Source: an uncultured Actinomycetes bacterium (GTDB lineage: Bacteria > Actinomycetota > Thermoleophilia > RBG-16-64-13). Taken from it: 64,000 nt of DNA. The DNA is taken from NCBI GenBank assembly GCA_963775295.1, contig CAVZIK010000006.1, positions 762,218 through 826,217 of the forward strand, in the 5' to 3' direction. This document shows, one piece after another, positions 12,316 to 45,675 of the stretch. A program made the position numbers and the translations under genes. Numbering within the stretch: position 1 is the stretch's first letter; each line of letters begins with the position of its first letter. Under the pieces are notes generated by a model. It did no database searches. It worked only from the letters and a program-made list of their open reading frames with translations, and was not told the DNA's origin.

Positions 12316-12364
12316 TTGCACCTCCAGGCGCACCGCAACCGAATGACACGTCACGATACAGGGT
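12316..12364 (+). promoter_or_regulatory. copy A of a recurring ~55-nt motif (…GCACCgcaACCGAATGACACGTCACGATACAGGGT), directly abutting the tandem repeat
   Basis: Aligns with copies at 14476, 16455, 16705 and 49071. Confidence 0.4.
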
Positions 12365-12675
12365 GATTGGCCGCAACTTTGCCTCGATTGTGCCTAGGTC
12401 AAACTCGGAATTCAACTCAGTCTCGCCTAGGGTTCCCCCTAGGTTCAAAGCCGAATTGAACTCATGTTCGCCTAGGATTGGCCGCAACTTTGCCTCGATT
12501 GTGCCTAGGTTAAACTCGGAATTCAACTCAGTCTCGCCTAGGATTCCCCCTAGGTTCAAAGCCGAATTGAACTCATGTTCGCCTAGGATTGGCCGCAACT
12601 TTGCCTCGATTGTGCCTAGGTCAAAAGCCGAAATCAATTCAAACGAGCCTAGGCTTGACCAACGACTCTAGGCTG
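12365..12675 (+). repeat. tandem repeat, 111-bp unit x about 2.8, each unit built of ~38-bp sub-repeats bounded by CCTAGG palindromes
   Basis: Units start at 12365, 12476 and 12587 (GATTGGCCGCAACTTTGCCTCGATTGTGCCTAGG…) and are nearly identical; there are 12 CCTAGG sites in about 310 bp; the third unit degenerates after 12625. Confidence 0.85.
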
Positions 12676-12709
12676 GTTATCAGGCCAATTGCTCAGGGAC
12701 AGACTCGCA

Positions 12710-14475: not shown

Positions 14476-14540
14476 TTGCACCCCTACCCGCACCCCTACC
14501 CAAATGACACGTCACGATACAGGGTAGACAAAATTGATGG
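14476..14540 (+). promoter_or_regulatory. copy B of the recurring ~55-nt motif (TTGCACCCCTACCCGCACCCCTACCCAAATGACACGTCACGATACAGGGTAGACAAAATTGATGG)
   Basis: Contains the internal direct repeat GCACCCCTACC twice; sits about 15 nt upstream of the putative ECF promoter. Confidence 0.45.
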
Positions 14541-14550
14541 GGACAGTAAA

Positions 14551-14576
14551 GGTAACAGCTGCCGCCATACGTCTAG
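14551..14576 (+). promoter_or_regulatory. putative ECF-type promoter GGTAAC-N13-CGTCTA, 40 nt upstream of the sigma gene start
   Basis: Same architecture, GGTAAT-N13-CGTCTG, at 16780-16804 before the paralogous sigma gene. Confidence 0.4.
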
Positions 14577-14616
14577 GATATAGAAGGGCAACCTCGGGGA
14601 AGGGGCAACAAGAAAG

Positions 14617-15156
14617 TTGACGAGAGCTGAGAGTTTGCCAGAACCCAGACGAGTAGCAGATATCAGTCGGGCTCAGAGCGGGAGCTTCGAAGCCTTTGTG
14701 AAACAGCACTCAACTCCTCTCGTTCAGACCCTGACGTTCGTTGCCCTTGATCGCCAACTGGCAGAGGACGCGGCTCAGGAGGCGTTCGTCCGGCTGTACT
14801 TGCGCTGGGACCAGGTCGAGAAGTTGCGGGACCCGGTGGCCTGGCTCTACCAGGTTGGGATCAACCAATGTAAGGACTACAGGCGCAAGCTTGGTCGGAT
14901 AGCCCGTCTCGTGGAACGTCTCGGTGCTGAAGCTCGCGAGCCCTCTGACGGCGAAACCTGGCTTCCTCAGCGTGAGTTCGTCGATGTTCTCAAGGCGCTT
15001 CCTCGTCGTCAGCGGACCGCGGTCGCCCTCTTCTACCTAGGCGACCTATCGGCGGTCGATGTTGCGTCGGTCATGCGCATTACTGAAGGGGCGGTGCACA
15101 GTCATCTTCACAAAGCCAGAGAGGCTCTGAAGGATGTGCTGGAGGTGAAGATATGA
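14617..15156 (+). CDS. ECF (extracytoplasmic function) sigma-70 family factor, copy 1
   Basis: TTG start; region 2 (…EDAAQEAFVRLYLRWDQV…WLYQVGINQCKDYRRK) and region 4 (…RTAVALFYLGDLSAVDVASVMRITEGAVHSHLHKAREAL). Confidence 0.9.
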   Translation: MTRAESLPEPRRVADISRAQSGSFEAFVKQHSTPLVQTLTFVALDRQLAEDAAQEAFVRLYLRWDQVEKLRDPVAWLYQVGINQCKDYRRKLGRIARLVERLGAEAREPSDGETWLPQREFVDVLKALPRRQRTAVALFYLGDLSAVDVASVMRITEGAVHSHLHKAREALKDVLEVKI

Positions 15157-16412
15157 GACCGGAAGAAAGAGACCAAGAGATACGCGAACTCTGTCGGAAG
15201 AACGCCCCCCATGTCGACCCGGCTGCCTTCTCCCGCAAGGTGAAGGCACGGACAGATCCAAGAAGAAGAGCGCGACGGAGAATGGGGCGAAAGGTTGGCG
15301 TCGCATTTGGGGTGGTGCTCCTGCTGGCCGGTGTCGGGATCGGCTCTCTGGAACTCGTCAACCATCTGACGCACGGGCAACGAGTAACCCTGATTCTGAA
15401 CGACGATTCCCCAAACGGAACAACAACGACTTCCCACCAACCAGTTCCGGGTGGGTTCTCCAGAGACAATACCTTCGGGTTCGACGTGCGCCAGCCCTTC
15501 ATCGATCATGACGCGACGCAGGCGCTTGGCGACCCCGCCTACAAGATCGTCACCACCTGGGTCGCCATCGGGAACCGCCAGAGTGTCCCGCTATCCTTCA
15601 AGCTCAGCGACCTGACCCTCATCGATGCCTATGACCAACTCGCCTACCGGGGCGTGCGGCCGGAGCAGTACAACTACACCGAGACCGTCACTCCCATCTG
15701 GACCCCCGCGCTCAAAGAGGGGACCATAGCTCCCGGCGCTATTGAAGGCGGGTACGTGTCCTGGAAGGTGCCTTGGTATGTCTGGCCGCAGGAAGTGTTC
15801 TACGCGTTCAAGGGCAAGGGTGGTGGAGGCGGTGGCCAGGGGTGGATGACGCCCATCTTCCCCGACCTCAACGCGGGCAATCGCTTCTATCTCTCAATCG
15901 GGAAGCTCCTGTATCGGGGTGTGGTCGATGTGCCCAAGGATGAGGACTTCAGGCCAGAAGCGGCGATCACCGTCGCCGACTTTGCCAAGATGGTTGTCAT
16001 TGCCGCGGCCCCGTATAACAGAGCCACATTCTCCTCTCCCGCCGGTTATATCGAGGAGGCGGCAAGGACAGGCTTTGCCACCTGGGGGTCAAAGACTGCC
16101 TCGTCCACACTGACACGACTGGAGGTCGCGCTGGCGGTAGCCGTACTGGCCAAAGAAACGTTGACTGCTCCTCCGGCAGGCTACAAGTTTCCGCTCACCG
16201 ATGTCCCGCAGAGCGCCGAGAGTGACCTTGCCTTGCTCACCTACAATGGCGTCGTCGCCGGGACCACCGCGATCAGCTTCAGTCCGGCGGACGCATGCTC
16301 ACGCGGTCAGGCCTGCAGGATGTTGGCCTTGGTACTCGATCCCAGATTCCGCGAGGAGGAGTCAAGGGCAACGACCTCTCTGCCGTCCGAGGCGACGACT
16401 ACCACTCGCTAG
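15153..16412 (+). CDS. anti-sigma factor, single TM, extracytoplasmic domain with poly-Gly stretch
   Basis: ATGA overlap with the sigma stop; N-terminus EERDQEIRELCRKNAPHVDPAAFSRKV then a TM helix VAFGVVLLLAGVGIGSL. Confidence 0.7.
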   Translation: MRPEERDQEIRELCRKNAPHVDPAAFSRKVKARTDPRRRARRRMGRKVGVAFGVVLLLAGVGIGSLELVNHLTHGQRVTLILNDDSPNGTTTTSHQPVPGGFSRDNTFGFDVRQPFIDHDATQALGDPAYKIVTTWVAIGNRQSVPLSFKLSDLTLIDAYDQLAYRGVRPEQYNYTETVTPIWTPALKEGTIAPGAIEGGYVSWKVPWYVWPQEVFYAFKGKGGGGGGQGWMTPIFPDLNAGNRFYLSIGKLLYRGVVDVPKDEDFRPEAAITVADFAKMVVIAAAPYNRATFSSPAGYIEEAARTGFATWGSKTASSTLTRLEVALAVAVLAKETLTAPPAGYKFPLTDVPQSAESDLALLTYNGVVAGTTAISFSPADACSRGQACRMLALVLDPRFREEESRATTSLPSEATTTTR

Positions 16413-16454
16413 GCGTTCGCAAGTCCCCGCCCTTGCCGAACTGCGACTCCAGTC

Positions 16455-16514
16455 GCACCCCTACGCGCACCCCTACCCAAATGACACCTGACGATACAGG
16501 GTGGACAGAATGGA
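16455..16514 (+). promoter_or_regulatory. copy C of the recurring ~55-nt motif
   Basis: GCACCCCTACGCGCACCCCTACCCAAATGACACCTGACGATACAGGGTGGACAGAATGGA. Confidence 0.4.
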
Positions 16515-16704
16515 CTGGCGGCTCAGGACTTTCAGAACGCAGTAGTACGCAGAAGTACCCCATGAACAGTCCGAGGGCGGTTTCCTAAACCTTGTGTCGC
16601 GCGTTCGATTCGCGCCGAGGGCACCTCGAAGATTCAGACTTATCCCTGCAAATGAGCCCTTTCCGGTTCCTCCGCTTGCGGCCTCAGACTGCCCAAAAGG
16701 CCGT

Positions 16705-16766
16705 TTGCACCCCTACGCGCACCCCTACCGGAATGATAAACGGTGATACACAATGGACAAAATGGA
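16705..16766 (+). promoter_or_regulatory. copy D of the recurring ~55-nt motif
   Basis: TTGCACCCCTACGCGCACCCCTACCGGAATGATAAACGGTGATACACAATGGACAAAATGGA; followed by CAGTAAAGGTAAT as in copy B. Confidence 0.45.
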
Positions 16767-16779
16767 CGACGGCAGTAAA

Positions 16780-16804
16780 GGTAATAGGCGTCGTCGCACG
16801 TCTG
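16780..16804 (+). promoter_or_regulatory. putative ECF-type promoter GGTAAT-N13-CGTCTG, 40 nt upstream of the sigma copy 2 start
   Basis: Parallel to 14551-14576. Confidence 0.4.
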
Positions 16805-16843
16805 AGAAGTAGGAAGGCGACGCAGGGAGGAGCAACGAGGGAC

Positions 16844-17383
16844 TTGACGATAGCCAAGGAGTCGCGAGACTCGACGCGGATAGCGGACAGCAATCGAGCG
16901 CAAAGTCTTAGTTTTGACGCCTTTGTCAGACGGTATTCGGTCCCCCTGATTCAGACACTCACCTTCGTTGCCCTGGACCGCCAACTAGCGGAAGATGCGG
17001 CGCAGGAGGCGTTCGTCCGACTGTACCTGCGTTGGGACCAGGTGGAGAAGCTGGAGGACCCAGTGGCCTGGGTCTATCGGGTCGGAATCAACCAATGCAA
17101 GGACTATCGGCGCAAGCTCACTCGGATAGCGCGGCTCGTCGAGCGTCTCGGCGCTGATGCTCACGAACCCTCTGACAGCGAGCCCTGGCTTCCTCGTCGT
17201 GAGTTCATCGATGCCCTCAAGATCCTTCCTCGCCGTCAGCGGACCGCGGTCGCCCTCTTCTACCTGGGCGACCTATCCGCGGCCGATGTGGCCTCGGTTA
17301 TGCTCATTACTGAAGGGGCGGTGCACAGTCACCTTCATAAGGCACGAGAGGTTCTGAAAGATGTGCTGGAGGTGAAGTCGTGA
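16844..17383 (+). CDS. ECF sigma factor, copy 2 (close paralog of 14617-15156)
   Basis: TTG start chosen by alignment with copy 1; the region 2 and region 4 blocks are nearly identical. The track ORF starts at 16592, but that stretch holds the regulatory motifs. Confidence 0.85.
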   Translation: MTIAKESRDSTRIADSNRAQSLSFDAFVRRYSVPLIQTLTFVALDRQLAEDAAQEAFVRLYLRWDQVEKLEDPVAWVYRVGINQCKDYRRKLTRIARLVERLGADAHEPSDSEPWLPRREFIDALKILPRRQRTAVALFYLGDLSAADVASVMLITEGAVHSHLHKAREVLKDVLEVKS

Positions 17384-18960
17384 AGATAGACGAAACGGAC
17401 GAGAGGCTGCAAGAACTCTGCCGCGAGAACGCCCCCCATGTTGACCCGGTCACCTTCTCTCGCAAAGTGGACGCAAGGGTGAACCCAAGAAGAAGGTCTC
17501 GGCGAAGGATGGCACGGAAGGTTATCCCGGTCTTCGTCGTCGTGGCCCTGCTTGCCGGCATCGGGATTGGCTCTCTTGAGCTGCTCAACTACCGAGCGCG
17601 ACAGCACCAGGTGGTAGTGATAAATGATGATTTCGGGACCGGCCCGACGGGTGGCACCGAAACGCCCTTGCCGCAGACTCGTGAGCTCAAGTACGGGGAG
17701 GTAGCCACAACCTACGAGGGGCTTGAGATTGTTGTGACCGTCGCTCCGACCTCGGGTACTTCCTACTCCGCGCGGCCTCCTGCTGTTGCCACCGGGGAGA
17801 AGCGTCTTCAAAGTCAGATAATCATCAAAAGCCCAAGCGGCAAGGCGCTCCCGTATGTCCCCTACGACCTGATTCTCCGGGATAAGGACGGGCGGTCTGT
17901 CAGACGCGAGGGGATTCAGAGCGCACAGGTAGAGGAAGTCGGCGGGACGCGATTGGAATCTGTGACCTGGGTAGTTCCTGCCGATTTCGAGGTGAGAAAT
18001 GTCGAGTACGGGATTGCCAGTGGACTGCACGGAGAGAACTTCATCTTCACCTGGGGTCCGGGTTCGCTTGAGCCCGGGCAGTCAGGATACGTGGTCCTGC
18101 AGTCGCTGCCCGAACTGCGCCCGAAGGAAGTGGCCTTTGTCGAGTTCCGCAAGGACGATGACCCTCCCCGAGTGCTCGATGCGGCTGCCAACCCGGAAGC
18201 GGTCAAGACTCTCGTCTCGGATTATGAGCAGACCGAGCTCCTACCTGGCGAGGGATACCCTGGAGTGCGGACTGACCTCGAACTCCTTTTCCACATGAAG
18301 GACGGCGCCTACTTAAGGGTCTGGGTCATGCAGGATGGTCACGACATAATCGAGGACCCTCGAACCGGCAACGTCGAGAACCCGCCAGAAGCCATGGGAT
18401 GGGCTCCGGAGCTTAATGCCACGGCCCGCGGGCTCTACGAGAGTCTGCCGCTCTTCTCGGGTGCCAAGGGCACCGATACCACCTCGACGACGACTGCCCC
18501 GTGGCAGGTCCAGCCAGTCTCTAGCCTCGATTGGGTGACTGAGGGGCTTTCACCCGAGGAGGTAGTGCAAAGGATTCAGAAGCAGCAAGGAAAGAACTCT
18601 GGTCCCATCTATCTTCCGAGGTCGTTTCCCTCGGGCTTCTATGCACCCGAGACCTACGCTTCTTCGCCCAATCCGGCACCGGGCGGTCACGGAGACAAGC
18701 CGGGATACAGCTTGTACCTGACCAACGGGAAAGATTACATCTCTCTCAACGTCAACTTTGCGGGCGACGTCGGCGACGTGACCTGGGTCGACTCTGGCGT
18801 TTCCTTTGAGGGCGGGTCCTTCAGGCGGGTGAATGACGTGGCCTTCCTCTCAGGTATCGGTGCTGATGATTCGACGGTCGACATCAACGGCTCCCTCACT
18901 GACCACAGCTATCAGGACGAGGTCTTCTTCATCGCAAAGTACCTGGTGAGGGTCCAATAG
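17380..18960 (+). CDS. anti-sigma factor copy 2 with a large (about 450 aa) extracytoplasmic domain
   Basis: GTGA overlap with the sigma stop; N-terminus DERLQELCRENAPHVDPVTFSRKVD is paralogous to 15153; TM helix IPVFVVVALLAGIGIGSL. Confidence 0.7.
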   Translation: MKIDETDERLQELCRENAPHVDPVTFSRKVDARVNPRRRSRRRMARKVIPVFVVVALLAGIGIGSLELLNYRARQHQVVVINDDFGTGPTGGTETPLPQTRELKYGEVATTYEGLEIVVTVAPTSGTSYSARPPAVATGEKRLQSQIIIKSPSGKALPYVPYDLILRDKDGRSVRREGIQSAQVEEVGGTRLESVTWVVPADFEVRNVEYGIASGLHGENFIFTWGPGSLEPGQSGYVVLQSLPELRPKEVAFVEFRKDDDPPRVLDAAANPEAVKTLVSDYEQTELLPGEGYPGVRTDLELLFHMKDGAYLRVWVMQDGHDIIEDPRTGNVENPPEAMGWAPELNATARGLYESLPLFSGAKGTDTTSTTTAPWQVQPVSSLDWVTEGLSPEEVVQRIQKQQGKNSGPIYLPRSFPSGFYAPETYASSPNPAPGGHGDKPGYSLYLTNGKDYISLNVNFAGDVGDVTWVDSGVSFEGGSFRRVNDVAFLSGIGADDSTVDINGSLTDHSYQDEVFFIAKYLVRVQ

Positions 18961-19044: not shown

Positions 19045-19077
19045 GGTAATGCTTTCCGGCCTGCCGGACATATGATG
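19045..19077 (+). promoter_or_regulatory. regulon promoter-like motif copy 1: GGTAATGCTTTCCGGCCTGCCGGACATATGATG
   Basis: One of 10 copies of the consensus AAGGTAATGCTTTCGGcccNGCCGGACATATGATGAG; 41 nt upstream of the 19116 start. Confidence 0.5.
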
Positions 19078-19115: not shown

Positions 19116-21455
19116 ATGCAAAGATATGTCGGACCAGCGCTCATCGCAGCCATCCTGGGCGCCTTGCTCCTGCTCGGTTCCCCTACCCTCGCCATGGCCA
19201 TCGTCGATGTGGGCGGCTGGAAGGTCACGCTTGCCTCGAGTGCTGAGGACTACGAACAACCGAGCGTAGACGCTGGCAGGTTTGTCTGGTCTGACTATCA
19301 AATGGGTCAGGGCGGAGTGATCAAGCAGTACGACGTTGCAAGCGGGCAGGTCGAAACGCTCCTGCAAACCGATCTTCAACCGGCGTTCCCGATTATCAGT
19401 GGAGACTACGTCGTCTTCGAGGGTTACGACAACAAGGGCGGGCAGTCCGACTCCGGGATCTACCTTCTTTCCCTGGCTTCGAAGCAATTGCGCAAGCTGA
19501 GCGCCGAGGGCTGGCAGGGCCGAGGGCCCCTAGTATCTGGGGATGTCATAGCTTGGACGGAATGGCAGGTGAGTGACCAAGGCCTTTCTCACACGCGGAT
19601 TGTCCTTCACAGGCTCTCGACCGATCAGACGACTACGATTACTCAGGCCGAGCCGGGAACCGACCAAGTGACGCTATCTCTTGTCAGTGATCGCTGGGTG
19701 CTGTGGCGGCAGTTCAACTCGCAAGCGGGAAAGAACACGGTCGGGTACTCGATCGCATCCGGCGAGGGAAGAACCTGGGAAGTTCTCAAGAACGCCAATC
19801 TGCAGACCATCGTTGGCGATACCCTCTACTACACGCTCCAGGAAGGTTCCCAGTGGACTCTTCGCGCCCGCAATCTGGCGAGCGGGAGCGACATCCCTGT
19901 ACTTAGCAACGATCAGCCGATCCAGTCGGTGTGCGTGGATGGTGGCCGCATCGCTTGGGCCTCCACCAGTTCTCAGGGATCTTTCGTGGCCATCTCCGAT
20001 CCGCTACGCGGCACCAGCACCGTGATTCGCTGTCCTGCCTATGAAGTGGGTGGCTTGTCGTTCAAAGGCGATCTTCTTCTCTGGCGAGCAGGTCGGCTCT
20101 TCAATTCTCCCACCACCCCCGGGACCCACGTATTTGTCTATGATGCCTCCGATGGCACGGCAACTAGAGTGTCCACCATCCAGTCCTACCCTCACGGCTT
20201 CTCGACCGACGGAAGCACTATCGCCGTCAGTGAGAGCAGCTACCGCCCAGGCTACTTTGCTACCTCACTCATGTTCGCGACCAGAGGCGCTCTCGATAAG
20301 ACCAAGCTCTTCTCTGACGTTCCCGGCACGGACCCCTACTGGACGGCGATCGAAGGACTGCGGGAGAAAGGGGCCATCGGCGGATATCCTGGGAGCAGCG
20401 GGCAAGTCGAGTTTCGTCCAGCAGGTGCGCTCACGCGCAGCCAGTTCGCCAAGATGTTGTGTCTGGCCCTGGGCGAAACTGAAAGCAGTGACTATCTGAC
20501 GACGCTCGTCAAACTCGGCGTCCTTCAAGGAACTACCTCCGGCAATCTCAATCCCTATGGGCAACTCACCCGGGCACAGATGATAAGCATGGTGGTCCGC
20601 GCAGCCGACAGGTTGCGTCCTGCCGTGCTCTTCGGGCCGATTCCCAGCGGACCAAGTAGCACGCTTGGACTCTTTGATAGGACTCATGGCCTCACGCTTC
20701 GCCGAGCGGAGTGGGGTGGGTTGCTCGATGGTCTGGTGGGTTTCGACAAGACCTGGGACCCCTGGCGACCGGCGTCCCGCGCGGAGACGGCAGAAGTGCT
20801 TTGGAACCTGGCGTCCGTGGGCTTCAGTGATGTCACTGACACGAGTCCGACAGATCCGTATGTGCCGGCCAGGACCCAAGACGGGATTCCATCGCCAGTC
20901 TGGGACTCGGCCGTAGATGGCTGGATCACGTACCGGGGTAACGGTGCATTCCTCTCTGAGTTCGACCGTGCATTCTTCTGGCATGACGGCCACTTCGTGA
21001 ATGCCGACGGCAGTCTCATGCAGATCCCCCCTTCGGCCAAAGCCCATCTCCACGATCTCGGGATCGACAAGCAACCTTCGGCAGACGTCACCTATTACTC
21101 CGCGCCTAGGCTCCAGACGACTCCCCGAGCGGGAGTGACCCTGACGGTGACAACCAGCCAATGGACCGAGGGGCGGCTGACCGCGACAGTTGCCATCCGC
21201 AACACCAGCGGTTCGCCCTTCTCATTTGCCAACAAGGACCTCGCCCTTTACATGAGCGGCACCAGCGTGCAGCAGACGAATCTGCAGCTACGACCTTTCG
21301 AGGTTGCCGCCGGAGCGAGCGCCGCATTCCGCACTGATGTCTACTTCATCGTTTCCCAGTTCGATTCAGCGGCGAGCGGCATTCTGTATGCCTCAAGTGA
21401 TCCCGAGAGCCTGGGCTTCATCGCGAGCGCTGGTCCGACTCAGAGTGGAGACTGA
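19116..21455 (+). CDS. secreted multidomain protein: N-terminal beta-propeller-like repeats, central SLH repeats, C-terminal domain shared with anti-sigma 26980
   Basis: RBS GGAG; signal peptide ALIAAILGALLLLGSPTLAMA; SLH-like FSDVPGTDPYWTAIEGLREKGAIGGY…; C-terminus …LYASSDPESLGFIASAG is similar to …FYASSDPGSAGFNKMV of 26980. Confidence 0.75.
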   Translation: MQRYVGPALIAAILGALLLLGSPTLAMAIVDVGGWKVTLASSAEDYEQPSVDAGRFVWSDYQMGQGGVIKQYDVASGQVETLLQTDLQPAFPIISGDYVVFEGYDNKGGQSDSGIYLLSLASKQLRKLSAEGWQGRGPLVSGDVIAWTEWQVSDQGLSHTRIVLHRLSTDQTTTITQAEPGTDQVTLSLVSDRWVLWRQFNSQAGKNTVGYSIASGEGRTWEVLKNANLQTIVGDTLYYTLQEGSQWTLRARNLASGSDIPVLSNDQPIQSVCVDGGRIAWASTSSQGSFVAISDPLRGTSTVIRCPAYEVGGLSFKGDLLLWRAGRLFNSPTTPGTHVFVYDASDGTATRVSTIQSYPHGFSTDGSTIAVSESSYRPGYFATSLMFATRGALDKTKLFSDVPGTDPYWTAIEGLREKGAIGGYPGSSGQVEFRPAGALTRSQFAKMLCLALGETESSDYLTTLVKLGVLQGTTSGNLNPYGQLTRAQMISMVVRAADRLRPAVLFGPIPSGPSSTLGLFDRTHGLTLRRAEWGGLLDGLVGFDKTWDPWRPASRAETAEVLWNLASVGFSDVTDTSPTDPYVPARTQDGIPSPVWDSAVDGWITYRGNGAFLSEFDRAFFWHDGHFVNADGSLMQIPPSAKAHLHDLGIDKQPSADVTYYSAPRLQTTPRAGVTLTVTTSQWTEGRLTATVAIRNTSGSPFSFANKDLALYMSGTSVQQTNLQLRPFEVAAGASAAFRTDVYFIVSQFDSAASGILYASSDPESLGFIASAGPTQSGD

Positions 21456-21507: not shown

Positions 21508-21538
21508 CGTAATGCTTTCGCCCCCGCCGGACATGTGA
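21508..21538 (+). promoter_or_regulatory. regulon promoter-like motif copy 2: CGTAATGCTTTCGCCCCCGCCGGACATGTGAT
   Basis: Consensus match; 40 nt upstream of ATG 21577. Confidence 0.45.
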
Positions 21539-21576
21539 TTCACAGAGGTACAGACGAGGCGGGCACTGGAGAGACT

Positions 21577-22263
21577 ATGGAAACGCAGCGGCAGCCGGAG
21601 GACACCACGCCATTTCTCAATCGATCTCGATCGGTGCTGCTCGGCGTAATCGTCTTGGCCATTGTTGTTGTGGTCGTCCTCATGCTTATGGGTCGCCTGG
21701 TGGTCTGGACCGAGCAGGTGAGTCTTCCGGCGCCGGTAGCCTCCGCAGGGACGGGCGATGTCTTCTACATCTCACAATTTGACGGGCCGATCCGGAACGC
21801 CTCGCCGAGCGAAGCGAAGCAAGGGACCGCGCAGGTATCCCTGGCCGTCTGGAACCCTGGATCAAGGAAGAATCTCGAGATCTTCTTCCAGTTGTGGCAC
21901 GCCGAGAAAACGGGCATCAAGAACCTGCGCGTTACACTGACGACTCCGAATGATTGGGGCGGGCTGCTCTTCTCCTTGCCCGAGGGCGACGGCTGGGGTC
22001 CCATGTTGCACAAGGCGAGCGGGGGCACGGTGACGGTTCAGTTCGACAAACTGGGCTGGAGCGCCCAAGGATACGTTGGGACTCTTCAGCTGCGTTTCTA
22101 CCCCGAGTACTTGGAATACGTCCTTACTCATGCCCAGGGCGACACGATTCACGCCGAAGTTGATTTCGACGTGGCTCCGACCGATTTTCCGCGCTTTCGG
22201 CAGTGGCACGTTCACGGCACCTGGCAGATTCCCGCGCTTCCGAAACAGGTCTTGGCGGGGTAG
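21577..22263 (+). CDS. membrane-anchored hypothetical protein (N-terminal TM helix, extracytoplasmic domain)
   Basis: RBS GGAGAG before ATG 21577; TM helix LLGVIVLAIVVVVVLMLMG; the track ORF 21304 start would run through the promoter motif. Confidence 0.55.
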   Translation: METQRQPEDTTPFLNRSRSVLLGVIVLAIVVVVVLMLMGRLVVWTEQVSLPAPVASAGTGDVFYISQFDGPIRNASPSEAKQGTAQVSLAVWNPGSRKNLEIFFQLWHAEKTGIKNLRVTLTTPNDWGGLLFSLPEGDGWGPMLHKASGGTVTVQFDKLGWSAQGYVGTLQLRFYPEYLEYVLTHAQGDTIHAEVDFDVAPTDFPRFRQWHVHGTWQIPALPKQVLAG

Positions 22264-22271
22264 TGGGTGAA

Positions 22272-22303
22272 GGTAAGCTGTCGGCCCTGCCGGACATATG
22301 ATG
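22272..22303 (+). promoter_or_regulatory. regulon promoter-like motif copy 3: GGTAAGCTGTCGGCCCTGCCGGACATATGATG
   Basis: Consensus match. Confidence 0.45.
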
Positions 22304-22389: not shown

Positions 22390-23406
22390 ATGAAGGTGAA
22401 TCATGATCTGCCCGGCTGTTCTCTTAAGCTGCGGGACACATTCAGGAACCGGAGCAAGATCTGGAAGGCAACCACCTGGCTCTTCTTCCTCGCGTTGGCA
22501 GGGATGTTTCTCTTCATCGGGACGGCGTGCGGAACAACGGGCACCGCTGGCGGCCTGGCCGTCGCCGCCAAGGACGGAAAGGCTCAAGCCGAGGATGTGC
22601 GAGCCAAGGCTTTGGCCGCTCTGCAAACCGTTGCGGCCTGGCAGGTGAAGACCACCTCCTCTGATGGGTGGGTCGAGACCGAATGGTGGTCGGCCAATTC
22701 CGGCAACTACCGTTGGGACGAAACCGTGGCTGGCAAGAAGCGATCTTCTCTGGGGACAGATGGAAAGGTGCTCATTGCTCCGGGTCCCGATGGTGCGGTC
22801 GTTGACCAACCACTCGGCCCGGCTGCCGGACGGCTGCCTACCTCCACCGTCTTTACGACCTACTATTCATATCTCAAGCAAGGGAAGCCGGTCACCGTGG
22901 GACAGTCTTCTGACGGAACGCTCAGGCTCGTGCTCAAAGACGCGCCGTCTTCCCTCTCCGCCGTGTTGGACACGAACTCCTATTTGCCCAGTGAGTTTCT
23001 CGGCAAGAGCGAGGAGACGGGTGCTGCCGGAGGGCACTTCATCCAATTGTCGCCCATCAGCTCTGACGATCTCGCGGCGGCGATTTCTGAGCTTCGAAAC
23101 ACACCTTCTCCAACCCGCGCCGATGTGACCCCGAAGGACCACCTGGTCAATGCGCTGAGGGCGGCGGGCATCGACTGCTATCGCGCCGACACCTACACCA
23201 ATCCCGAGAAGGAACGAGGACTGGAACTAAGCATCCAAGCGCCGATAGGCGAGGCAGGCCATGCACTTGCTGAGAAAGCGGTCTCGCTGGTGCGGGAAAA
23301 CCGGACCATTCTCCCGGTCGATTCGGTCACGATCTACCTACTCACTGTGACAAACGAGTTCTACAGTGAAACCTTCACCCTGGACTCCGTATCGTCGGGA
23401 CCATGA
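22390..23406 (+). CDS. putative lipoprotein (lipobox LFIGTAC)
   Basis: RBS GGAGGAGAGG; signal and lipobox sequence. Confidence 0.55.
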   Translation: MKVNHDLPGCSLKLRDTFRNRSKIWKATTWLFFLALAGMFLFIGTACGTTGTAGGLAVAAKDGKAQAEDVRAKALAALQTVAAWQVKTTSSDGWVETEWWSANSGNYRWDETVAGKKRSSLGTDGKVLIAPGPDGAVVDQPLGPAAGRLPTSTVFTTYYSYLKQGKPVTVGQSSDGTLRLVLKDAPSSLSAVLDTNSYLPSEFLGKSEETGAAGGHFIQLSPISSDDLAAAISELRNTPSPTRADVTPKDHLVNALRAAGIDCYRADTYTNPEKERGLELSIQAPIGEAGHALAEKAVSLVRENRTILPVDSVTIYLLTVTNEFYSETFTLDSVSSGP

Positions 23407-23447: not shown

Positions 23448-23480
23448 GTAATGCCCTCAGCCCTGTGTGACATTTGATGA
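23448..23480 (+). promoter_or_regulatory. regulon promoter-like motif copy 4 (divergent): CGTAATGCCCTCAGCCCTGTGTGACATTTGATG
   Basis: Weaker consensus match that keeps the GTAATGC and CATtTGATGAG blocks. Confidence 0.35.
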
Positions 23481-23567: not shown

Positions 23568-24695
23568 ATGAAGCGGAGATTGCGCGGGCCAGATCGCTTG
23601 TCGCCCTCCACCGTTGCGATCCTCGGGCTGACCCTCATGCTCGTCCTGTGCTTGGTCGGCGTCCTTGTCTTCGGCTGCGCGTCGCCCAACCAGGCGGCAA
23701 GCACAACCTCGCAGACCTACGCACTGGGAGGATTGGACCCGGCCCTGGCCCAGTTGATCGATGAGGCGAGGGCTGCCGGTCTTCGGATGGGTGCGGCCGC
23801 GACGAGCCAAGGCGAACTCACCCTTGACGTCCTGACCCAGCCGGACCAGCCTGTGGGCGATTACGAATCTATCGCCCAGAAACTGCTCCTTCTCGCCCAG
23901 AAGTTCAAGGATCGATTCACCCAGTTCTCACCCAAGGTCGATCTCCTGCACGTTCGCGTCGCCTGGGCCGACACTCCCCAGCACTCGACGGCTCTTTATG
24001 ATCGCTACTTCCAGCTAACCATGCCTGCCCGAGTGAACACTCCGGTCAACATCAGCCTGAGCCTCGTTGCGGCCAACACCATAAAGTTTGGGGAGATCTG
24101 GGTCCGCGTCGCCCAGGCCGGGGGATTCGCGGCTGAGAGTGCATATCCCGATGCCTACCCAACAGGCTTGGATCTGGACTTCACGCCGTCTGGCTCCCTG
24201 TTCCAGTTGGAGATTGTCGCCCGCACTCACGACCAAAGAACCATCAGTGTGGCCTGGAGCGGATCTGATGGAGCGGCAGACCAGAGAGTGCTCGTGACCG
24301 GAGTGGTGAAGACGGGATCGGCTACGGAACCGATCGTGACCTTGGATTCCGTGTCGAGAGTCGCTGCTGCTTTTGATGAGGTGGGCGTCAAGAGCATGAT
24401 CGCGCTGATGCCAACGGTCCACCTTGGTGGTTACTACGCCCTTAGGCCTGTCCTTCACGCGGGCAGCACCAGAGGCGGCTCGATTCCGGCAATGGTGACC
24501 GCCTACCTGTGGGACTCCACGAAACTCGTGCCCCTGGATGCCAACGACCCGATCCGCATCGGCAATGCTCCCTACCTCATGCTGGAACTATCTTGGGTCG
24601 GACCTGGCGTTCAGCCGCCTGGCACCGCGGTTGCACCTATGCCCCCTGCGCTTCCCAGTCCAGTCTTCTTTGCCATCCCAGTGCCGGTGCTGTGA
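23568..24695 (+). CDS. putative lipoprotein (lipobox LVFGCAS)
   Basis: RBS GGGGGATGAG; ATG 23568 is in frame with track ORF 23481. Confidence 0.55.
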   Translation: MKRRLRGPDRLSPSTVAILGLTLMLVLCLVGVLVFGCASPNQAASTTSQTYALGGLDPALAQLIDEARAAGLRMGAAATSQGELTLDVLTQPDQPVGDYESIAQKLLLLAQKFKDRFTQFSPKVDLLHVRVAWADTPQHSTALYDRYFQLTMPARVNTPVNISLSLVAANTIKFGEIWVRVAQAGGFAAESAYPDAYPTGLDLDFTPSGSLFQLEIVARTHDQRTISVAWSGSDGAADQRVLVTGVVKTGSATEPIVTLDSVSRVAAAFDEVGVKSMIALMPTVHLGGYYALRPVLHAGSTRGGSIPAMVTAYLWDSTKLVPLDANDPIRIGNAPYLMLELSWVGPGVQPPGTAVAPMPPALPSPVFFAIPVPVL

Positions 24696-24705
24696 GCGAC
24701 GCCAA

Positions 24706-24736
24706 GGTAATGCTTTCGGACCCGCCGGACATATAC
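24706..24736 (+). promoter_or_regulatory. regulon promoter-like motif copy 5: GGTAATGCTTTCGGACCCGCCGGACATATAC
   Basis: Consensus match. Confidence 0.45.
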
Positions 24737-24778
24737 TTGGCAGGTAGCTAGAGGGTGACGGCAGAAGGAGGTTCGCCC

Positions 24779-26285: not shown

Positions 26286-26491
26286 GCAGGGAATCTCTGG
26301 CTAGTCCAGTTCTGGCCCAGTTGCCAGAGCGCGTCACAAGCCCTGAACTGCCCCGCGACCACAAAGTAAAGAAAATCGCCCCGTCAGACGTCGTTCATGG
26401 TGGATGATTGAACACCGGGTAGGCGGTTGGAGGCGGAGCGACGGATCGGGTTGAGGTCATTGACGCACCACATGGCAAGAGGAGTTGGGCG

Positions 26492-26983: not shown

Positions 26984-28842
26984 TGGACAGAGGCGATCTG
27001 GACGAGCGCCTGCGTGAGGTCTATGAATCTAATGCGCCGATGGTCGATGAGACCGAATTTGCTTCCCGGCTAAGAAGGAAGTCCAATGTTCACCGGACTC
27101 ATCTGGCCCACGACGCTCGCCCTCGGCGGACTCTGATCATCGCCCTTGCGTCCCTGGTCCTAGTCGCGGCGGTCGCCGTTGGCGCGTACGAAGCAGTACT
27201 TCACCTGGAGCAGGGCAAGAGGGTGGTGGTCATCAACGACGACAGCATGAGCCCCAACGGTTCGGCTGCAGGCGCAAATCAGGTGCTACTCGAAAAGGCA
27301 CTCACCTGGATCGAGGCGGCCCCGACCAAAGTCACATTTGGTCCCTACACGATTGCCTACGGAGCGCAGGCTAAGGTGGCCGAGGTGACGGTCGATCCTC
27401 ACCCTAGCGGCGAGCCGCTCCTCTCTGGCCCGGTCTGGTGGTCGTCGGACACCGACTACTACATTCAGGACGGTACAGGTGGCCCTCCCCAGCACGTCAC
27501 CCCGAGTATGGCGCAAGAGATGAGCACGCAGACCTACCCGGGTGCCTCATCAGGGGCCAGTCTCTTGGCCATCTTGAGGATGGTCTTCGATCCTCATCGG
27601 CTTCTACAAAAGTCGCTGGTCACAAAAGCAGCGAAGGAAGCAGACGGCACGTGGGACCTCGAGGCCACGATCACCGCCAGGGATCTCATCGGGCTGGACA
27701 TTCCCGATCAGATTCTCTTGGCGGGCACCGGGATATCTCCCTCGAAGGTTCTTCGGACCACTCTCAAGCTGGGCGCAGACGGTGGCATCCACGCTATGTC
27801 GACGCTATTCAGCGATTCGGCCTCAGATGCGACAAACTATGTCTGGGCAAGGAGCTCGACTGAGCCTTCTCTCCCGAGTGCGTCGGTCGAAATGGACCAG
27901 ACCCTCCGACAGAGCGCTTTTCTCGGGGGCTGGCGGGCAAGCCTTGCAGATGCGGCCAAAGACATCGGCTTCCCCGTCTACTCGCTGGGCGAGACCTATC
28001 TCGGCTTGAGTCTGCGGCTTATACACGTCGAACTCACCTACAAACCGACGATTGCACTCTTGCTCGAATACGACCCGGGCCAGAAGGCGGCTCCTCTCGG
28101 GACCGCGACCACTGTAGCCGCTGGGGAGACGACCACTAGCGGAGCTAGCGGGGAATCCCTCGCCCCTGGGGGGTTCGTGCTCTTCGAGTATCCCGACTCC
28201 AACGTGCCCGATGGCGAGAAGTCGTTCGTGGCCAAGAAGATCTTGCTGAAGACGGTTTCGCACGGTGGCGAGACGTACTCCATCTACACCACGCCGAAAG
28301 GGAAGCCTGGCCGCTCGATCCTCGTGAAGGCAGGTACGACCTACGTCTCCATCGAGCGCTCCGGAGGCGGGACGGGGGATGCCACGGATGAGTTAGTCGC
28401 CGCAGCCGAGGCGCTTCAAAGAGTCGGTACCTCCGACGATCAGTCGTCGTCCACAAGCCAGTCTGATTCGCGCACTCTGGCTGGTCTGAACGCTGTTCGC
28501 CTGGACATGGCTCCACGCGTGGGAGTCCATCTGCAGGCACACCTAGGCCAGGCCTCCGGTTCGGACAGTGTGTCGCTCCGGCTCATGGTCAAGAACAACA
28601 GCGACTCCGCCTTCTCTTTCAGCGTGGATGACTTCACCCTCTACATTGACGGCTCCCCGCTAAAAGCAAAGGCCCAGGTTCACCAGCCGGACACGGTGCT
28701 AGTCCAGCCCGGCGACACGGCCGTCGTGGAGGGAGGCTACTTCTGGCTTCTGTCGAGTCCGACTTCAAAGAGCAGTGGTCTGTTCTACGCTTCGAGCGAC
28801 CCAGGGAGCGCCGGTTTCAACAAGATGGTGAGCGCACAATGA
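26980..28842 (+). CDS. anti-sigma factor copy 3 with a large (about 540 aa) extracytoplasmic domain; C-terminal domain shared with 19116-21455
   Basis: Overlaps the sigma stop; N-terminus DERLREVYESNAPMVDETEFASRLRRK then a TM helix LIIALASLVLVAAVAVGAY. Confidence 0.7.
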   Translation: MMDRGDLDERLREVYESNAPMVDETEFASRLRRKSNVHRTHLAHDARPRRTLIIALASLVLVAAVAVGAYEAVLHLEQGKRVVVINDDSMSPNGSAAGANQVLLEKALTWIEAAPTKVTFGPYTIAYGAQAKVAEVTVDPHPSGEPLLSGPVWWSSDTDYYIQDGTGGPPQHVTPSMAQEMSTQTYPGASSGASLLAILRMVFDPHRLLQKSLVTKAAKEADGTWDLEATITARDLIGLDIPDQILLAGTGISPSKVLRTTLKLGADGGIHAMSTLFSDSASDATNYVWARSSTEPSLPSASVEMDQTLRQSAFLGGWRASLADAAKDIGFPVYSLGETYLGLSLRLIHVELTYKPTIALLLEYDPGQKAAPLGTATTVAAGETTTSGASGESLAPGGFVLFEYPDSNVPDGEKSFVAKKILLKTVSHGGETYSIYTTPKGKPGRSILVKAGTTYVSIERSGGGTGDATDELVAAAEALQRVGTSDDQSSSTSQSDSRTLAGLNAVRLDMAPRVGVHLQAHLGQASGSDSVSLRLMVKNNSDSAFSFSVDDFTLYIDGSPLKAKAQVHQPDTVLVQPGDTAVVEGGYFWLLSSPTSKSSGLFYASSDPGSAGFNKMVSAQ

Positions 28843-29381
28843 GGACCATTCAAGAACAGGGCATCGATTCCGAGCGCCGTTCTCAGGCTCGCAGCGGGAC
28901 CATGTGGCTTCGCTATCTCGGGATCATACAGGAGTGTGGCATGGTGCGAAGCACAAGACTTGGACAACGTCAAGCGATGCTAACTGCCGTGGCTATCCTC
29001 GCCTGGGCTTTGATCGTCGCTGTGGTTTTCGGCGTCCTTGATATCACACTTCCTGGGGGGAGCGGAGCTGCACTTAGTTTGGTACTCATCCCCGTCTATC
29101 TGGCTGCGCCTCTGGCGGCACTACTATTTGCCGCAATTTCGCGGACGACTGATGAGCGACGGGTTGAGAATCGGGCCACTCTTCTCTCCGTGATACTCCC
29201 GATAGTCCCAACGGTGCTTGTGGCACTGTGGGGAGAGAGTCACTACAATCTATCTGTCGGCGACGCGGTCATTGGAGCAGTTGGAATCATTGCCGCTGGA
29301 TCTATATTCGAGGTGCTCATCGGCTACTGGTTTGCCGGGTTTGGCCTTCGATTCGCGAAAACTCGGCACCTTCGCATGTGA
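28839..29381 (+). CDS. small polytopic membrane protein (paralog of 41779-42072; shared WLRYLGII motif)
   Basis: ATGA overlap with the anti-sigma stop; four hydrophobic helices. Confidence 0.5.
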   Translation: MRTIQEQGIDSERRSQARSGTMWLRYLGIIQECGMVRSTRLGQRQAMLTAVAILAWALIVAVVFGVLDITLPGGSGAALSLVLIPVYLAAPLAALLFAAISRTTDERRVENRATLLSVILPIVPTVLVALWGESHYNLSVGDAVIGAVGIIAAGSIFEVLIGYWFAGFGLRFAKTRHLRM

Positions 29382-42610: not shown

Positions 42611-42650
42611 GGTAATCCTTTGCGGCTTGCCGGACATATGATGAGGCAGA
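42611..42650 (+). promoter_or_regulatory. regulon promoter-like motif copy 8: GGTAATCCTTTGCGGCTTGCCGGACATATGATGAGGCAGA
   Basis: Consensus match. Confidence 0.45.
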
Positions 42651-45551: not shown

Positions 45552-45590
45552 GGTAACGCTTTCGGGGCAGCCGGACATATCATGAGTGAG
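45552..45590 (+). promoter_or_regulatory. regulon promoter-like motif copy 9: GGTAACGCTTTCGGGGCAGCCGGACATATCATGAGTGAG
   Basis: Consensus match. Confidence 0.45.
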
Positions 45591-45675
45591 GGCGCAGGAT
45601 GAAAATCGGGAGCGTCTGGCGTCGTGCCCGCGTCAAACCAGGCGAGGGTGCACCGAAAGCCGGAGGGGGCAGCAA

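What the first reader, a model, noticed from the sequence alone, without database searches (positions are those of the whole stretch)
14476..18960. Three paralogous ECF sigma / giant anti-sigma pairs with translational coupling; two sit as a tandem duplicate with duplicated upstream leaders
Sigma and anti-sigma pairs at 14617/15153, 16844/17380 and 26492/26980 all share 4-nt start-stop overlaps. The anti-sigmas carry 350-540-aa extracytoplasmic domains. The anti-sigma at 26980 ends in a domain also found at the C-terminus of the SLH protein 19116-21455 (…YASSDP[E/G]S.GF…). That link suggests the anti-sigma sensor domain is homologous to a cell-surface protein of its own regulon. Copies 1 and 2 are near-identical in the sigma but have divergent anti-sigma ectodomains. 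This points to recent duplication followed by sensor diversification.
Basis: partly seen in the sequence, partly recalled or inferred. Interest (0 to 1): 0.55.

Follow-up and report, generated by a model that had tools for sequence, protein, structure and literature searches.

The report
Three ECF sigma/anti-sigma sensor pairs
An uncultured actinobacterium carries three related stress-sensor gene pairs (a small sigma factor plus a large membrane protein that probably holds it in check) whose outward-facing sensor parts are built from the same protein modules as neighbouring cell-surface proteins; this is a new variant of a well-known signalling scheme, not a new kind.

Summary
The window has exactly three ECF sigma genes (14617, 16844, 26492). 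Each overlaps by 4 nt a gene for a single-pass membrane protein of 419, 526 or 620 aa. These proteins share a ~85-aa N-terminal module and nothing else. The 0.93-kb promoter–sigma–anti-sigma-N-terminus unit is tandemly duplicated.

The anti3 C-terminus is homologous to the C-terminus of SLH protein 19116 (33% over 110 aa). It defines a rare family (51 representatives in 1.84 billion) that AlphaFold models as an Ig-like sandwich (pLDDT 95) closest to DUF4352/MPT63 folds.

The interpretation needs three corrections:
- The duplication is old (dS 0.76, 81% aa identity), not recent.
- The ectodomains are unrelated. Similarity ends abruptly after the membrane helix, so they were swapped rather than diverged.
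- Membership of its "own regulon" is not shown.

A conserved ECF-type promoter (GTAAAG-N17/18-CGTC) occurs only upstream of the three sigma genes, and upstream of the sigma gene in four of five related loci. The SLH gene instead carries a different 35-nt box. That box has eight copies in the window, before envelope genes and before the sig3 operon, and is conserved in relatives.

Anti1 carries SLH repeats, and its relatives' ectodomains reuse modules of box-preceded proteins. I class it as a new variant of a known kind.

The parts
14476..14616 (+). Leader 1. It holds the dispersed element TTGCACCCCTACC/GCACCCCTACC + AATGACACGTCACGATACAGGGT (14476-14537), then the candidate autoregulatory ECF promoter GTAAAG-N18-CGTCT (14546-14574).
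   Evidence: (D5, D6)
14617..15156 (+). sig1, an ECF sigma factor of 179 aa with a TTG start
15153..16412 (+). anti1, a putative anti-sigma of 419 aa. The N-terminal ~45 aa are cytoplasmic, there is one TM (about aa 45-72), and the ectodomain ends in SLH repeats (Pfam SLH at 348-388; a second SLH-like stretch at 233-284).
16455..16514 (+). Orphan third copy of the 60-nt leader element (90% identical to 14478-14537). It has no ECF promoter or sigma gene behind it.
   Evidence: (D5)
16705..16843 (+). Leader 2. It holds the same element (75%) plus the candidate ECF promoter GTAAAG-N18-CGTCT (16775-16803).
16844..17383 (+). sig2, an ECF sigma factor of 179 aa, 81% identical to sig1
17380..18960 (+). 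anti2, a putative anti-sigma of 526 aa. The N-terminal module is 59% identical to anti1. The ~455-aa ectodomain has no homologue found.
19046..19071 (+). Copy of the 8-copy upstream box GGTAATGCTTTCGGCCCTGCCGGACAT, 45 nt before the SLH/propeller gene
   Evidence: (D3)
19116..21455 (+). Secreted beta-propeller-like + SLH protein (779 aa). Its C-terminal ~110 aa (nt ~21099-21419) are the sandwich domain shared with anti3.
   Evidence: orthologue P0013
26258..26283 (+). Box copy ~100 nt upstream of the sig3 ECF-type promoter
26366..26392 (+). Candidate autoregulatory ECF promoter of the sig3 operon, GTAAAG-N17-CGTC
   Evidence: same motif in L004, L005, L085, L087
26492..26983 (+). sig3, an ECF sigma factor of 163 aa
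26980..28842 (+). anti3, a putative anti-sigma of 620 aa. It comprises the N-terminal module + TM (1-95), module A (97-470, 50% identical to the free-standing membrane protein P0002), and the C-terminal Ig-like sandwich (504-613, nt ~28489-28818).
28839..29381 (+). Third gene of the sig3 operon, a 180-aa polytopic membrane protein with an ATGA overlap with anti3 and no Pfam match
21509..21534 (+). Box copy before the membrane-anchored protein gene (~21574-22263)
22273..22297 (+). Box copy (1 nt shorter) before the lipoprotein gene ~22390-23406
23448..23473 (+). Box copy before the lipoprotein gene ~23568-24695. Its module aa 164-323 recurs inside the anti-sigma P0007 of another organism.
24707..24732 (+). 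Box copy before the membrane protein gene 24755-25306
42612..42637 (+). Box copy before the SLH + IPT/TIG protein gene 42918-45308
45553..45578 (+). Box copy before the serpin gene 45586-46965 and the coupled lipoprotein gene 46962-48293

Best explanation
These are three paralogous ECF sigma / membrane anti-sigma signalling modules of a rare family restricted to an uncultured Actinomycetota lineage.

Proposed mechanism. Every step here is inferred from what is known of ECF systems; none is shown.
1. The ~45-residue cytoplasmic N-terminus of each membrane protein (two short helices followed by the TM helix) binds and sequesters its translationally coupled sigma.
2. A change sensed by the large extracytoplasmic part leads to removal of the anti-sigma, most probably by regulated proteolysis.
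3. The freed sigma then transcribes its own operon from the conserved GTAAAG-N17/18-CGTC promoter, plus targets outside this window.

Input specificity. The constant promoter-sigma-N-terminus-TM cassette is joined to unrelated ectodomain modules:
- anti1: an unknown domain plus SLH wall-binding repeats.
- anti2: an orphan ectodomain.
- anti3: a module also found free-standing, plus a DUF4352/MPT63-like Ig sandwich.

These modules come from the same lineage-specific pool that builds the neighbouring secreted, SLH and lipoproteins. The sensors therefore probably monitor the state of the cell envelope or surface layer.

The envelope genes, and the sig3 operon itself, share a second conserved upstream box (GGTAATGC-N13-CGGACAT). 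It most likely marks a separate promoter or operator that puts them under one further regulator.
For: Sigma identity:
- Pfam r2 + r4_2 only, TIGR02937 passed, and nearest solved relatives are ECFs (SigW, SigH, SigE).

Anti-sigma anatomy:
- Stop/start overlap in all three window pairs. The same order sigma then anti-sigma N-terminal homologue is seen in L004, L005, L084, L085 and L164.
- The N-terminus plus one TM is conserved while ectodomains are unrelated.
- N-terminus identity tracks sigma identity: 81%/59% for pair 1 vs 2, and 52%/34% vs pair 3.
- The AF2 single-sequence model gives helices 3-17, 23-33 and 36-73 at pLDDT 67-85.

Promoter:
- GTAAWG-N16-19-ACGTC occurs three times in 64 kb against 0.07 expected, each time upstream of a sigma gene.
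- The relaxed pattern gives only two further hits, both intragenic.
- The motif recurs upstream of the sigma in L004, L005, L085 and L087.
- Between sig1 and sig2 the hexamers are conserved while the spacer is not.

Modularity:
- P0002 equals anti3 97-470 without an anti-sigma N-terminus.
- The sandwich family has 51 representatives, among them the anti-sigmas P0007, P0033 and P0031, and SLH, lipoprotein and serpin-linked proteins.
- The module of window lipoprotein 23568 is found inside anti-sigma P0007 (E 9e-14).
- The L004 anti-sigma has a different, BNR-like propeller ectodomain (read by eye).

Fold:

Box:
- Eight + strand copies before + strand envelope genes against 0.18 expected.
- Conserved in L085 (same position relative to the sigma promoter), L003 and L165.
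Against: - No binding or inhibition has been shown. The N-terminal module matches no Pfam or NCBIfam anti-sigma family, has no HxxxCxxC zinc motif, and at ~45 aa is shorter than a class I anti-sigma domain.
- No target promoter other than the autoregulatory ones was found in 64 kb, so the output of the three sigmas is unknown.
- All three promoters look alike, so specificity between paralogues is unexplained.
- The regulated-proteolysis step is assumed by analogy, and no protease gene is linked.
- The box could be the true sigma target rather than a separate element. L084 lacks a recognisable copy of the ECF motif.
Confidence: 0.72

Rival explanations
1. The 8-copy box is the sig3-dependent promoter. 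The SLH/propeller protein, the lipoproteins, the serpin and the sig3 operon would then form the sig3 regulon, and anti3 would sense through a domain homologous to one of its own regulon's surface proteins, in the manner of RsgI/cellulosome.
For: - The box precedes both the sig3 operon and the SLH gene, and the same layout is found in L085.
- Its upstream hexamer GTAATG differs by one base from the GTAAAG of the sigma promoters. At 17 nt downstream it reads CATAT where the others read CGTCT (read), so it has the architecture of a related ECF promoter.
- Modules of box-preceded proteins recur in anti-sigma ectodomains of relatives.
Against: - sig3 already has the family-wide GTAAAG-N17-CGTC motif closer to its start. 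The closest sig3 relatives, L004 and L087, have that motif but no box.
- Regions 2 and 4 of sig3 are very similar to those of sig1 and sig2, which predicts the same CGTC-type promoter.
- The box's spacer is conserved, which is unusual for a plain promoter.
Confidence: 0.18
2. The downstream membrane proteins are not anti-sigmas. They are co-transcribed envelope proteins, that is, products of the regulon, and the sigmas are controlled in another way, for example only transcriptionally through the upstream repeat element or the box.
For: - No match to any known anti-sigma domain family.
- The cytoplasmic part is very short.
- A public gene call starts anti2 at Met44 and drops that part.
- 11-nt direct repeats upstream of sig1 and sig2 could be a transcription-factor site.
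Against: - The only part conserved across eight loci with otherwise unrelated ectodomains is precisely the cytoplasmic N-terminus plus the TM. It co-varies in identity with the sigma and is under purifying selection (dN/dS ~0.25).
- Stop/start overlap with the sigma gene is kept in all the pairs examined.
Confidence: 0.08

Closest known systems
Canonical ECF sigma / single-pass membrane anti-sigma pairs (e.g. B. subtilis SigW-RsiW, M. tuberculosis SigD-RsdA, SigK-RskA, E. coli RpoE-RseA)
   Same: - Two-domain sigma (regions 2 and 4).
- The anti-sigma gene lies immediately downstream and is translationally coupled.
- Cytoplasmic N-terminus, one TM and an extracytoplasmic sensor.
- A conserved autoregulatory promoter with an AA-rich -35 and a CGTC -10.
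- The nearest solved sigma is SigW, 5wuq, E 8e-13.
   Different: - The N-terminal module has no sequence match to zf-HC2, RskA, RsdA or any other Pfam anti-sigma family, is only ~45 aa long and has no zinc motif.
- The ectodomains are unusually large (350-545 aa) and completely different between paralogues.
- The sigma scores below the cutoff of every NCBIfam subfamily. The best is TIGR02983 SigE-fam_strep, 107 bits against 141.55.
Clostridium thermocellum SigI/RsgI biomass-sensing pairs (PMC10328401, PMC4711584, PMC6582324)
   Same: - Several paralogous sigma/anti-sigma pairs in one genome.
- A constant N-terminal anti-sigma part is joined to different extracellular modules.
- Those modules are homologous to modules of the secreted or surface proteins being regulated.
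   Different: - The sigmas here are ECF-type, not SigI.
- There is no RsgI N-terminal domain hit.
- The modules are SLH repeats, an Ig-like sandwich and lineage-specific domains, not CBMs, PA14 or glycoside hydrolases.
- The regulatory link to the surface-protein genes is not shown here.
DUF4352 / MPT63-type Ig-like sandwiches of Gram-positive lipoproteins (YcdA 4r4g, Lmo1068 4eae, YjhA 3cfu, MPT63 1lmi)
   Same: - An extracytoplasmic location.
   Different: - Sequence identity is 7-15%.
- Pfam DUF4352, DUF5001 and LEA_2 are hit only weakly and by a minority of members.
- The family has its own near-C-terminal Y-x-S-S-D-P-x-S-x-G-F motif.
- None of these folds has a function that could be transferred.

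Membership tests
ECF (group 4) sigma-70 factors | Only sigma regions 2 and 4, about 160-200 aa | tested here: met
   Pfam Sigma70_r2 and Sigma70_r4_2 are above cutoff in all three, with no r3 or r1. Lengths are 179, 179 and 163 aa.
ECF (group 4) sigma-70 factors | Passes the curated ECF superfamily model | tested here: met
   TIGR02937 sigma70-ECF scores 64.7, 62.0 and 62.1 bits against a cutoff of 42.9.
ECF (group 4) sigma-70 factors | Conserved promoter motif upstream of its own operon (autoregulation) | tested here: met
   GTAAWG-N16-19-ACGTC occurs 3 times against 0.07 expected, only upstream of the sigma genes. It is also upstream of the sigma in L004, L005, L085 and L087. Actual use as a promoter was not tested.
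ECF (group 4) sigma-70 factors | Assignment to a named ECF group (Staron 2009 / Casas-Pastor 2021 HMMs) | not testable with these tools
   The group HMMs are not available here. The best NCBIfam subfamily, TIGR02983, is below its cutoff. Only about 7 close relatives (>=49% identity) were found in the genome and metagenome scans.
Class I anti-sigma domain, zinc-binding (ZAS) type | H-x3-C-x2-C zinc motif in the N-terminal domain | tested here: not met
   Read directly from the sequence. anti1 and anti2 have a single Cys (ELCRxNAPH), and anti3 has none in residues 1-50.
Class I anti-sigma domain (any) | A cytoplasmic bundle of about 80-90 aa with four helices, or a match to the Pfam families zf-HC2, RskA, RsdA_SigD_bd or DUF4179 | tested here: not met
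   No such Pfam hit even at E<=5. The cytoplasmic part is ~45 aa with two predicted helices before the TM helix. A minimal or class II-like domain is not excluded.
Membrane anti-sigma factor (functional class) | Binds and inhibits the cognate sigma | not testable with these tools
   Inferred only from gene order, translational coupling, a conserved N-terminus plus TM, and co-variation with the sigma.
SLH-domain cell-wall-anchored proteins (anti1 C-terminus) | Pfam SLH above the gathering score | tested here: met
   PF00395 scores 33.1 bits against 20.8 at aa 348-388. A second SLH-like stretch, 233-284, aligns to the SLH region of protein 19116 (E 0.001-0.003).
SLH-domain cell-wall-anchored proteins (anti1 C-terminus) | Three tandem SLH repeats forming the wall-polymer-binding unit | tested here: inconclusive
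   Three repeat-like segments are seen by eye and in alignment A9, but only one passes Pfam. The AF2 single-sequence model is too poor to judge (pLDDT <50 beyond aa 64).
DUF4352 (PF11611) / MPT63-like sandwich | Sequence match above the Pfam threshold | tested here: not met
   The window copies show only DUF4232 at E 0.045 and LEA_2 at 0.036. Among 40 members, 6 touch DUF4352 (best 0.007) and 9 touch DUF5001 (best 5.7e-5).
DUF4352 (PF11611) / MPT63-like sandwich | Same fold | tested here: met
   [not shown]
SigI/RsgI system | SigI-type sigma and an RsgI N-terminal domain | tested here: not met
   The sigmas classify as ECF, and the partners have no RsgI_N hit. The resemblance is in logic only.

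The most novel reading that the evidence does not exclude
Sentinel sensing of the surface layer. In this reading the anti-sigma ectodomains are deliberate copies of the modules that make up the cell's own wall-anchored and lipid-anchored surface proteins: SLH repeats in anti1, the Ig-like sandwich in anti3, and the lipoprotein-23568 module in relatives. Whatever detaches, degrades or titrates those surface proteins, for example an external protease or loss of the pyruvylated wall polymer, would hit the sensor at the same time. That would trigger its proteolysis and switch on replacement surface proteins and a serpin protease inhibitor through the sigma / box cascade. An SLH-anchored anti-sigma that bridges membrane and wall would be a new type of wall-integrity sensor.
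Probability: 0.15. Interest if true: 0.75.

Novelty: new variant of a known kind. Interest (0 to 1): 0.45.

Why it matters
ECF sigma/anti-sigma pairs are among the commonest bacterial signalling devices, yet the input signal is unknown for most groups. This locus shows what looks like sensor evolution by cassette exchange. An old, conserved promoter-sigma-anchor unit has been re-fitted with unrelated extracellular modules taken from the organism's own surface-protein repertoire. One of those modules is a set of SLH wall-binding repeats, for which I found no report on an ECF anti-sigma in the searched literature.

The work also yields three reusable items:
- a previously unnamed Ig-like domain family with a confident model;
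- a predicted promoter for this ECF family;
- a second conserved box defining a compact envelope regulon that includes a bacterial serpin.

Together these give concrete, cheap experiments (reporter fusions, two-hybrid, start-site mapping) in a poorly known actinobacterial lineage. If the sensor-mimics-target idea held, it would extend the RsgI principle from polysaccharide sensing to surveillance of the cell's own surface.

Tried and rejected
- Homologue searches in the 5.8e9 database gave almost nothing. anti3 returned self plus one partial hit. The anti-sigma N-terminal profile returned three short hits. anti2 returned self only. Family-wide statistics on ectodomain diversity were therefore not possible.
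- The full-length anti1 structure from a single sequence was unusable beyond residue ~64 (pLDDT 38.9). The SLH triple repeat and the membrane-proximal domain could not be confirmed structurally.
- A membrane-proximal sandwich in all three anti-sigmas is not supported. The local HMM gave E 0.11 and 1.1. hhalign gave E 0.008 and 0.08 with probabilities of 5% or less.
- The leaders are not a known RNA element or tRNA remnant. ARAGORN found none, and Rfam found nothing credible in 12-30 kb.
- The box is not an RNA hairpin. The TCCGG/CCGGA dyad is perfect in only one copy (read).
- The sigma-70 and terminator consensus scans were uninformative.
- The afdb50 fold library was not available.
- The organism could not be named. 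Cluster look-ups carry no names, and the genome is not among the species representatives scanned. The nearest sigma relatives are MAGs labelled Actinomycetes and Gaiellales.
- Reading of Casas-Pastor 2021 (PMC7826278) gave no way to assign an ECF group without its HMMs.


Full report
**1. What is there**

ORF listing and translation show three gene pairs on the + strand:
- sig1 14617-15156 and anti1 15153-16412.
- sig2 16844-17383 and anti2 17380-18960.
- sig3 26492-26983 and anti3 26980-28842.

The junctions read ATGA, GTGA and GTGA. At the third junction an ATG one codon later gives TGATG instead. A fourth gene, 28839-29381, is coupled to anti3 by ATGA and encodes a 180-aa polytopic membrane protein with no Pfam match. 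HMMs built from the family find exactly three sigmas and three anti-sigma N-termini in the six-frame translation of the whole window. Each partner has a single hydrophobic segment at about residues 45-75.

**2. The sigmas**

All three carry Pfam Sigma70_r2 and Sigma70_r4_2 only, and pass NCBIfam TIGR02937 (sigma70-ECF). Their best subfamily, TIGR02983 (SigE family of actinomycetes), scores 88-107 bits, below its cutoff of 141.55. The nearest solved structures are ECFs (SigW 5wuq at E 8e-13, then SigH, SigE and SigL). The refutation condition 'sigma genes fail to classify as ECF' is therefore not met. Assignment to a numbered ECF group could not be tested.

**3. The partners**

The three proteins align only over their first ~85 residues (59% for 1 vs 2, 34% vs 3). 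That stretch has three parts:
- a short conserved cytoplasmic segment (D-x-x-L-x-E-L/V-x-x-x-N-A-P-x-V-D);
- an Arg-rich stretch and one TM helix;
- a small N-D-D motif just outside the membrane.

There is no HxxxCxxC motif and no hit to any Pfam or NCBIfam anti-sigma family, even at E<=5. A single-sequence AlphaFold model is confident only for this part, giving helices 3-17, 23-33 and 36-73.

The label 'anti-sigma' is thus an inference. It rests on:
- gene order and stop/start overlap;
- conservation of precisely this part across loci whose ectodomains are unrelated;
- identity that tracks that of the sigma;
- purifying selection (dN/dS 0.25).

**4. The duplication**

The repeated DNA runs from 14476 to about 15400 and from 16705 to about 17627. 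It covers the leader, the sigma and the first ~85 codons of the partner. Identity is 62-88% per 60-nt window, then drops abruptly to the ~40% background. Synonymous divergence is 0.76 for the sigma and about 1.1 for the partner's N-terminus, with dN/dS 0.15 and 0.25. So the duplication is old, both copies are maintained, and the ectodomain-coding parts were replaced rather than diverged.

The ectodomains differ as follows:
- anti1 ends in SLH repeats. Pfam SLH scores 33.1 bits at 348-388, and a second SLH-like stretch at 233-284 aligns to the SLH region of protein 19116.
- anti2's ectodomain has no homologue other than itself in 5.8e9 proteins.
- anti3 has a module (97-470) that is 50% identical to a free-standing membrane-anchored protein, P0002. 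P0002 has neither the anti-sigma N-terminus nor a sigma upstream. The shared C-terminal domain follows this module.

**5. The shared C-terminal domain**

anti3 504-613 and SLH protein 662-768 are 33% identical (E 1e-10). A profile of the two, searched against 1.84e9 representatives, finds 51 proteins at E<=1e-3 and 36 at E<=1e-10. The domain is nearly always at the extreme C-terminus.

Members include:
- an orthologue of the SLH/propeller protein (P0013, 63% identical);
- small lipoproteins;
- lipoproteins resembling window protein 23568;
- a serpin-linked fragment (P0021);
- three further proteins with the anti-sigma N-terminus or its TM region (P0007, P0033, P0031).

It is therefore a distinct, rare family of the Ig-like DUF4352/MPT63 fold class, with a characteristic Y-x-S-S-D-P-x-S-x-G-F motif. 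It splits into an anti3-type and an SLH-type subfamily, 29% identical across and 40-60% within. The two window copies are therefore not a recent intragenomic exchange.

**6. Promoters**

Between the sig1 and sig2 leaders the best-conserved short blocks are AGTAAAGGTAA and ACGTCT, separated by a non-conserved spacer. The pattern GTAAWG-N16-19-ACGTC occurs three times in 64 kb against 0.07 expected, at 14546, 16775 and 26366. Each copy lies upstream of a sigma gene. Relaxing to GTAA[ACT]-N17-20-CGTC adds only two hits, both intragenic.

The same motif lies upstream of the sigma in related loci:
- L004 (59% identical; a MAG labelled Actinomycetes);
- L005 (50%; Gaiellales);
- L085, with a spacer two to three bases shorter;
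- L087, as GTGAAG...CGTT.

L084 has no clear copy. This is the expected signature of an autoregulated ECF promoter.

It is not found before the SLH gene or any other gene in the window. The targets of the three sigmas are therefore unknown, and the claim that the SLH protein belongs to anti3's 'own regulon' is not supported by this motif.

**7. A second conserved element**

A ~35-nt box, consensus CCAAGGTAATGCTTTCGGCCCTGCCGGACATATGATGA, occurs eight times against 0.18 expected. All copies are on the + strand, 10-300 nt upstream of + strand genes:
- the SLH/propeller protein (19046);
- a membrane-anchored protein (21509);
- two lipoproteins (22273, 23448);
- a membrane protein (24707);
- the sig3 operon (26258, ~100 nt upstream of its ECF motif);
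- an SLH + IPT/TIG protein (42612);
- a serpin plus lipoprotein operon (45553).

It is conserved in relatives:
- In L085 it sits ~110 nt upstream of the sigma's ECF motif, the same layout as at sig3.
- In L003 it precedes a lipoprotein gene next to P0002.
- In L165 it precedes the operon holding the SLH/propeller orthologue.

Its hexamer GTAATG is one base from GTAAAG. At 17 nt downstream it reads CATAT where the sigma promoters read CGTCT. It may therefore be the promoter of a related sigma, possibly one of these three. The conserved spacer could also mean an operator. The dyad in it is not conserved, so a hairpin is unlikely. I consider a separate regulator most likely and sig3 control possible (about 0.18).

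**8. Module sharing**

Residues 164-323 of window lipoprotein 23568, a box-preceded gene, are homologous to the middle of anti-sigma P0007 (33%, E 9e-14) and to P0047, which ends in the sandwich (E 2e-32). The C-terminal region of the SLH/IPT protein matches P0041, which also ends in the sandwich (E 3e-15).

Add anti1's SLH repeats and anti3's sandwich. The sensor parts of this ECF family are then drawn from the same pool of modules as the box-preceded surface proteins. It parallels the logic of SigI/RsgI in Clostridium thermocellum (PMC10328401, PMC4711584) without membership of that family.

**9. Verdict**

It is wrong on 'recent' and 'near-identical', imprecise on 'divergent', and unproven on 'own regulon'.
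- The system is a new variant of a known kind. Its distinctive features are a rare, lineage-restricted ECF family with an uncatalogued short anti-sigma module, cassette-like exchange of large ectodomains (including an SLH-bearing one), a new Ig-like domain family, and two conserved regulatory motifs.
- Interest is moderate.

Noticed in passing
window 19046, 21509, 22273, 23448, 24707, 26258, 42612, 45553 (+ strand); L085:1166, L003:11352, L165:6752: A conserved ~35-nt box (GGTAATGCTTTCGGCCCTGCCGGACATATGATGA) lies upstream of eight envelope, secreted or sigma operons. It is conserved upstream of related genes in three other organisms. It is a candidate promoter for an unidentified sigma, or an operator, and it defines a compact envelope regulon.
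   Followed up: partly
window 12316-12365, 14476-14537, 16453-16514, 16705-16766: A dispersed intergenic element: two 11-nt direct repeats GCACCCCTACC followed by AATGACACGTCACGATACAGGGT. There are four copies, two in the sig1 and sig2 leaders, one orphan after anti1, and one diverged copy just before a 111-nt tandem array. Its function is unknown. A transcription-factor site with 11-bp phasing or a promoter are possibilities.
   Followed up: partly
window 12365-12697: A tandem array of a 111-nt unit (2.4-3 copies, 98% identical) in an intergenic region. It is rich in CCTAGG palindromes, has a 45-nt sub-period, and has no Rfam match.
   Followed up: no
window 45586-46965 and 46962-48293; P0021: A bacterial serpin (Pfam Serpin, E 2e-99) with a signal or lipoprotein-like N-terminus is translationally coupled to a lipoprotein gene and preceded by the box. 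In another organism a serpin C-terminus is followed by the same Ig-like sandwich domain (P0021).
   Followed up: partly
window 30193-32438 and 34873-35778 (-): An IS21-type transposase pair lies directly after the sig3 operon. The first gene has a Mu-transposase C-terminal domain hit and an HTH. The second was identified by position only. A tyrosine recombinase (Phage_integrase) gene lies 2.4 kb further on. This suggests a recombination-prone neighbourhood.
   Followed up: no
window 17380-17508; P0056: The only other entry for anti2 in the protein collection (P0056, listed under NCBI/ENA sources) starts at Met44 and so lacks the conserved cytoplasmic N-terminal module. Annotation alone would hide its anti-sigma character.
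   Followed up: yes
window 16592-16843: The sig2 reading frame stays open for 84 codons upstream of the homology-supported TTG start. The alignment with the sig1 leader has a 2-nt gap there, so this extension is probably not coding.
   Followed up: partly
window 37711-41532: A 1273-aa protein that, by eye, combines an N-terminal HATPase-like (anti-sigma kinase-like) region, several PAS domains, a GAF domain and a C-terminal PP2C/SpoIIE phosphatase. It is a partner-switching-type regulator. It sits between the two groups of box-preceded genes. It was not scanned with Pfam.
   Followed up: no
L004:6465-7706: The anti-sigma of the closest sig3 relative carries BNR/Ycf48-like propeller repeats (S/T-x-D-G-G-x-T-W) in its ectodomain. 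This is yet another unrelated sensor module on the same N-terminal cassette. The reading frame appears interrupted in the MAG.
   Followed up: no
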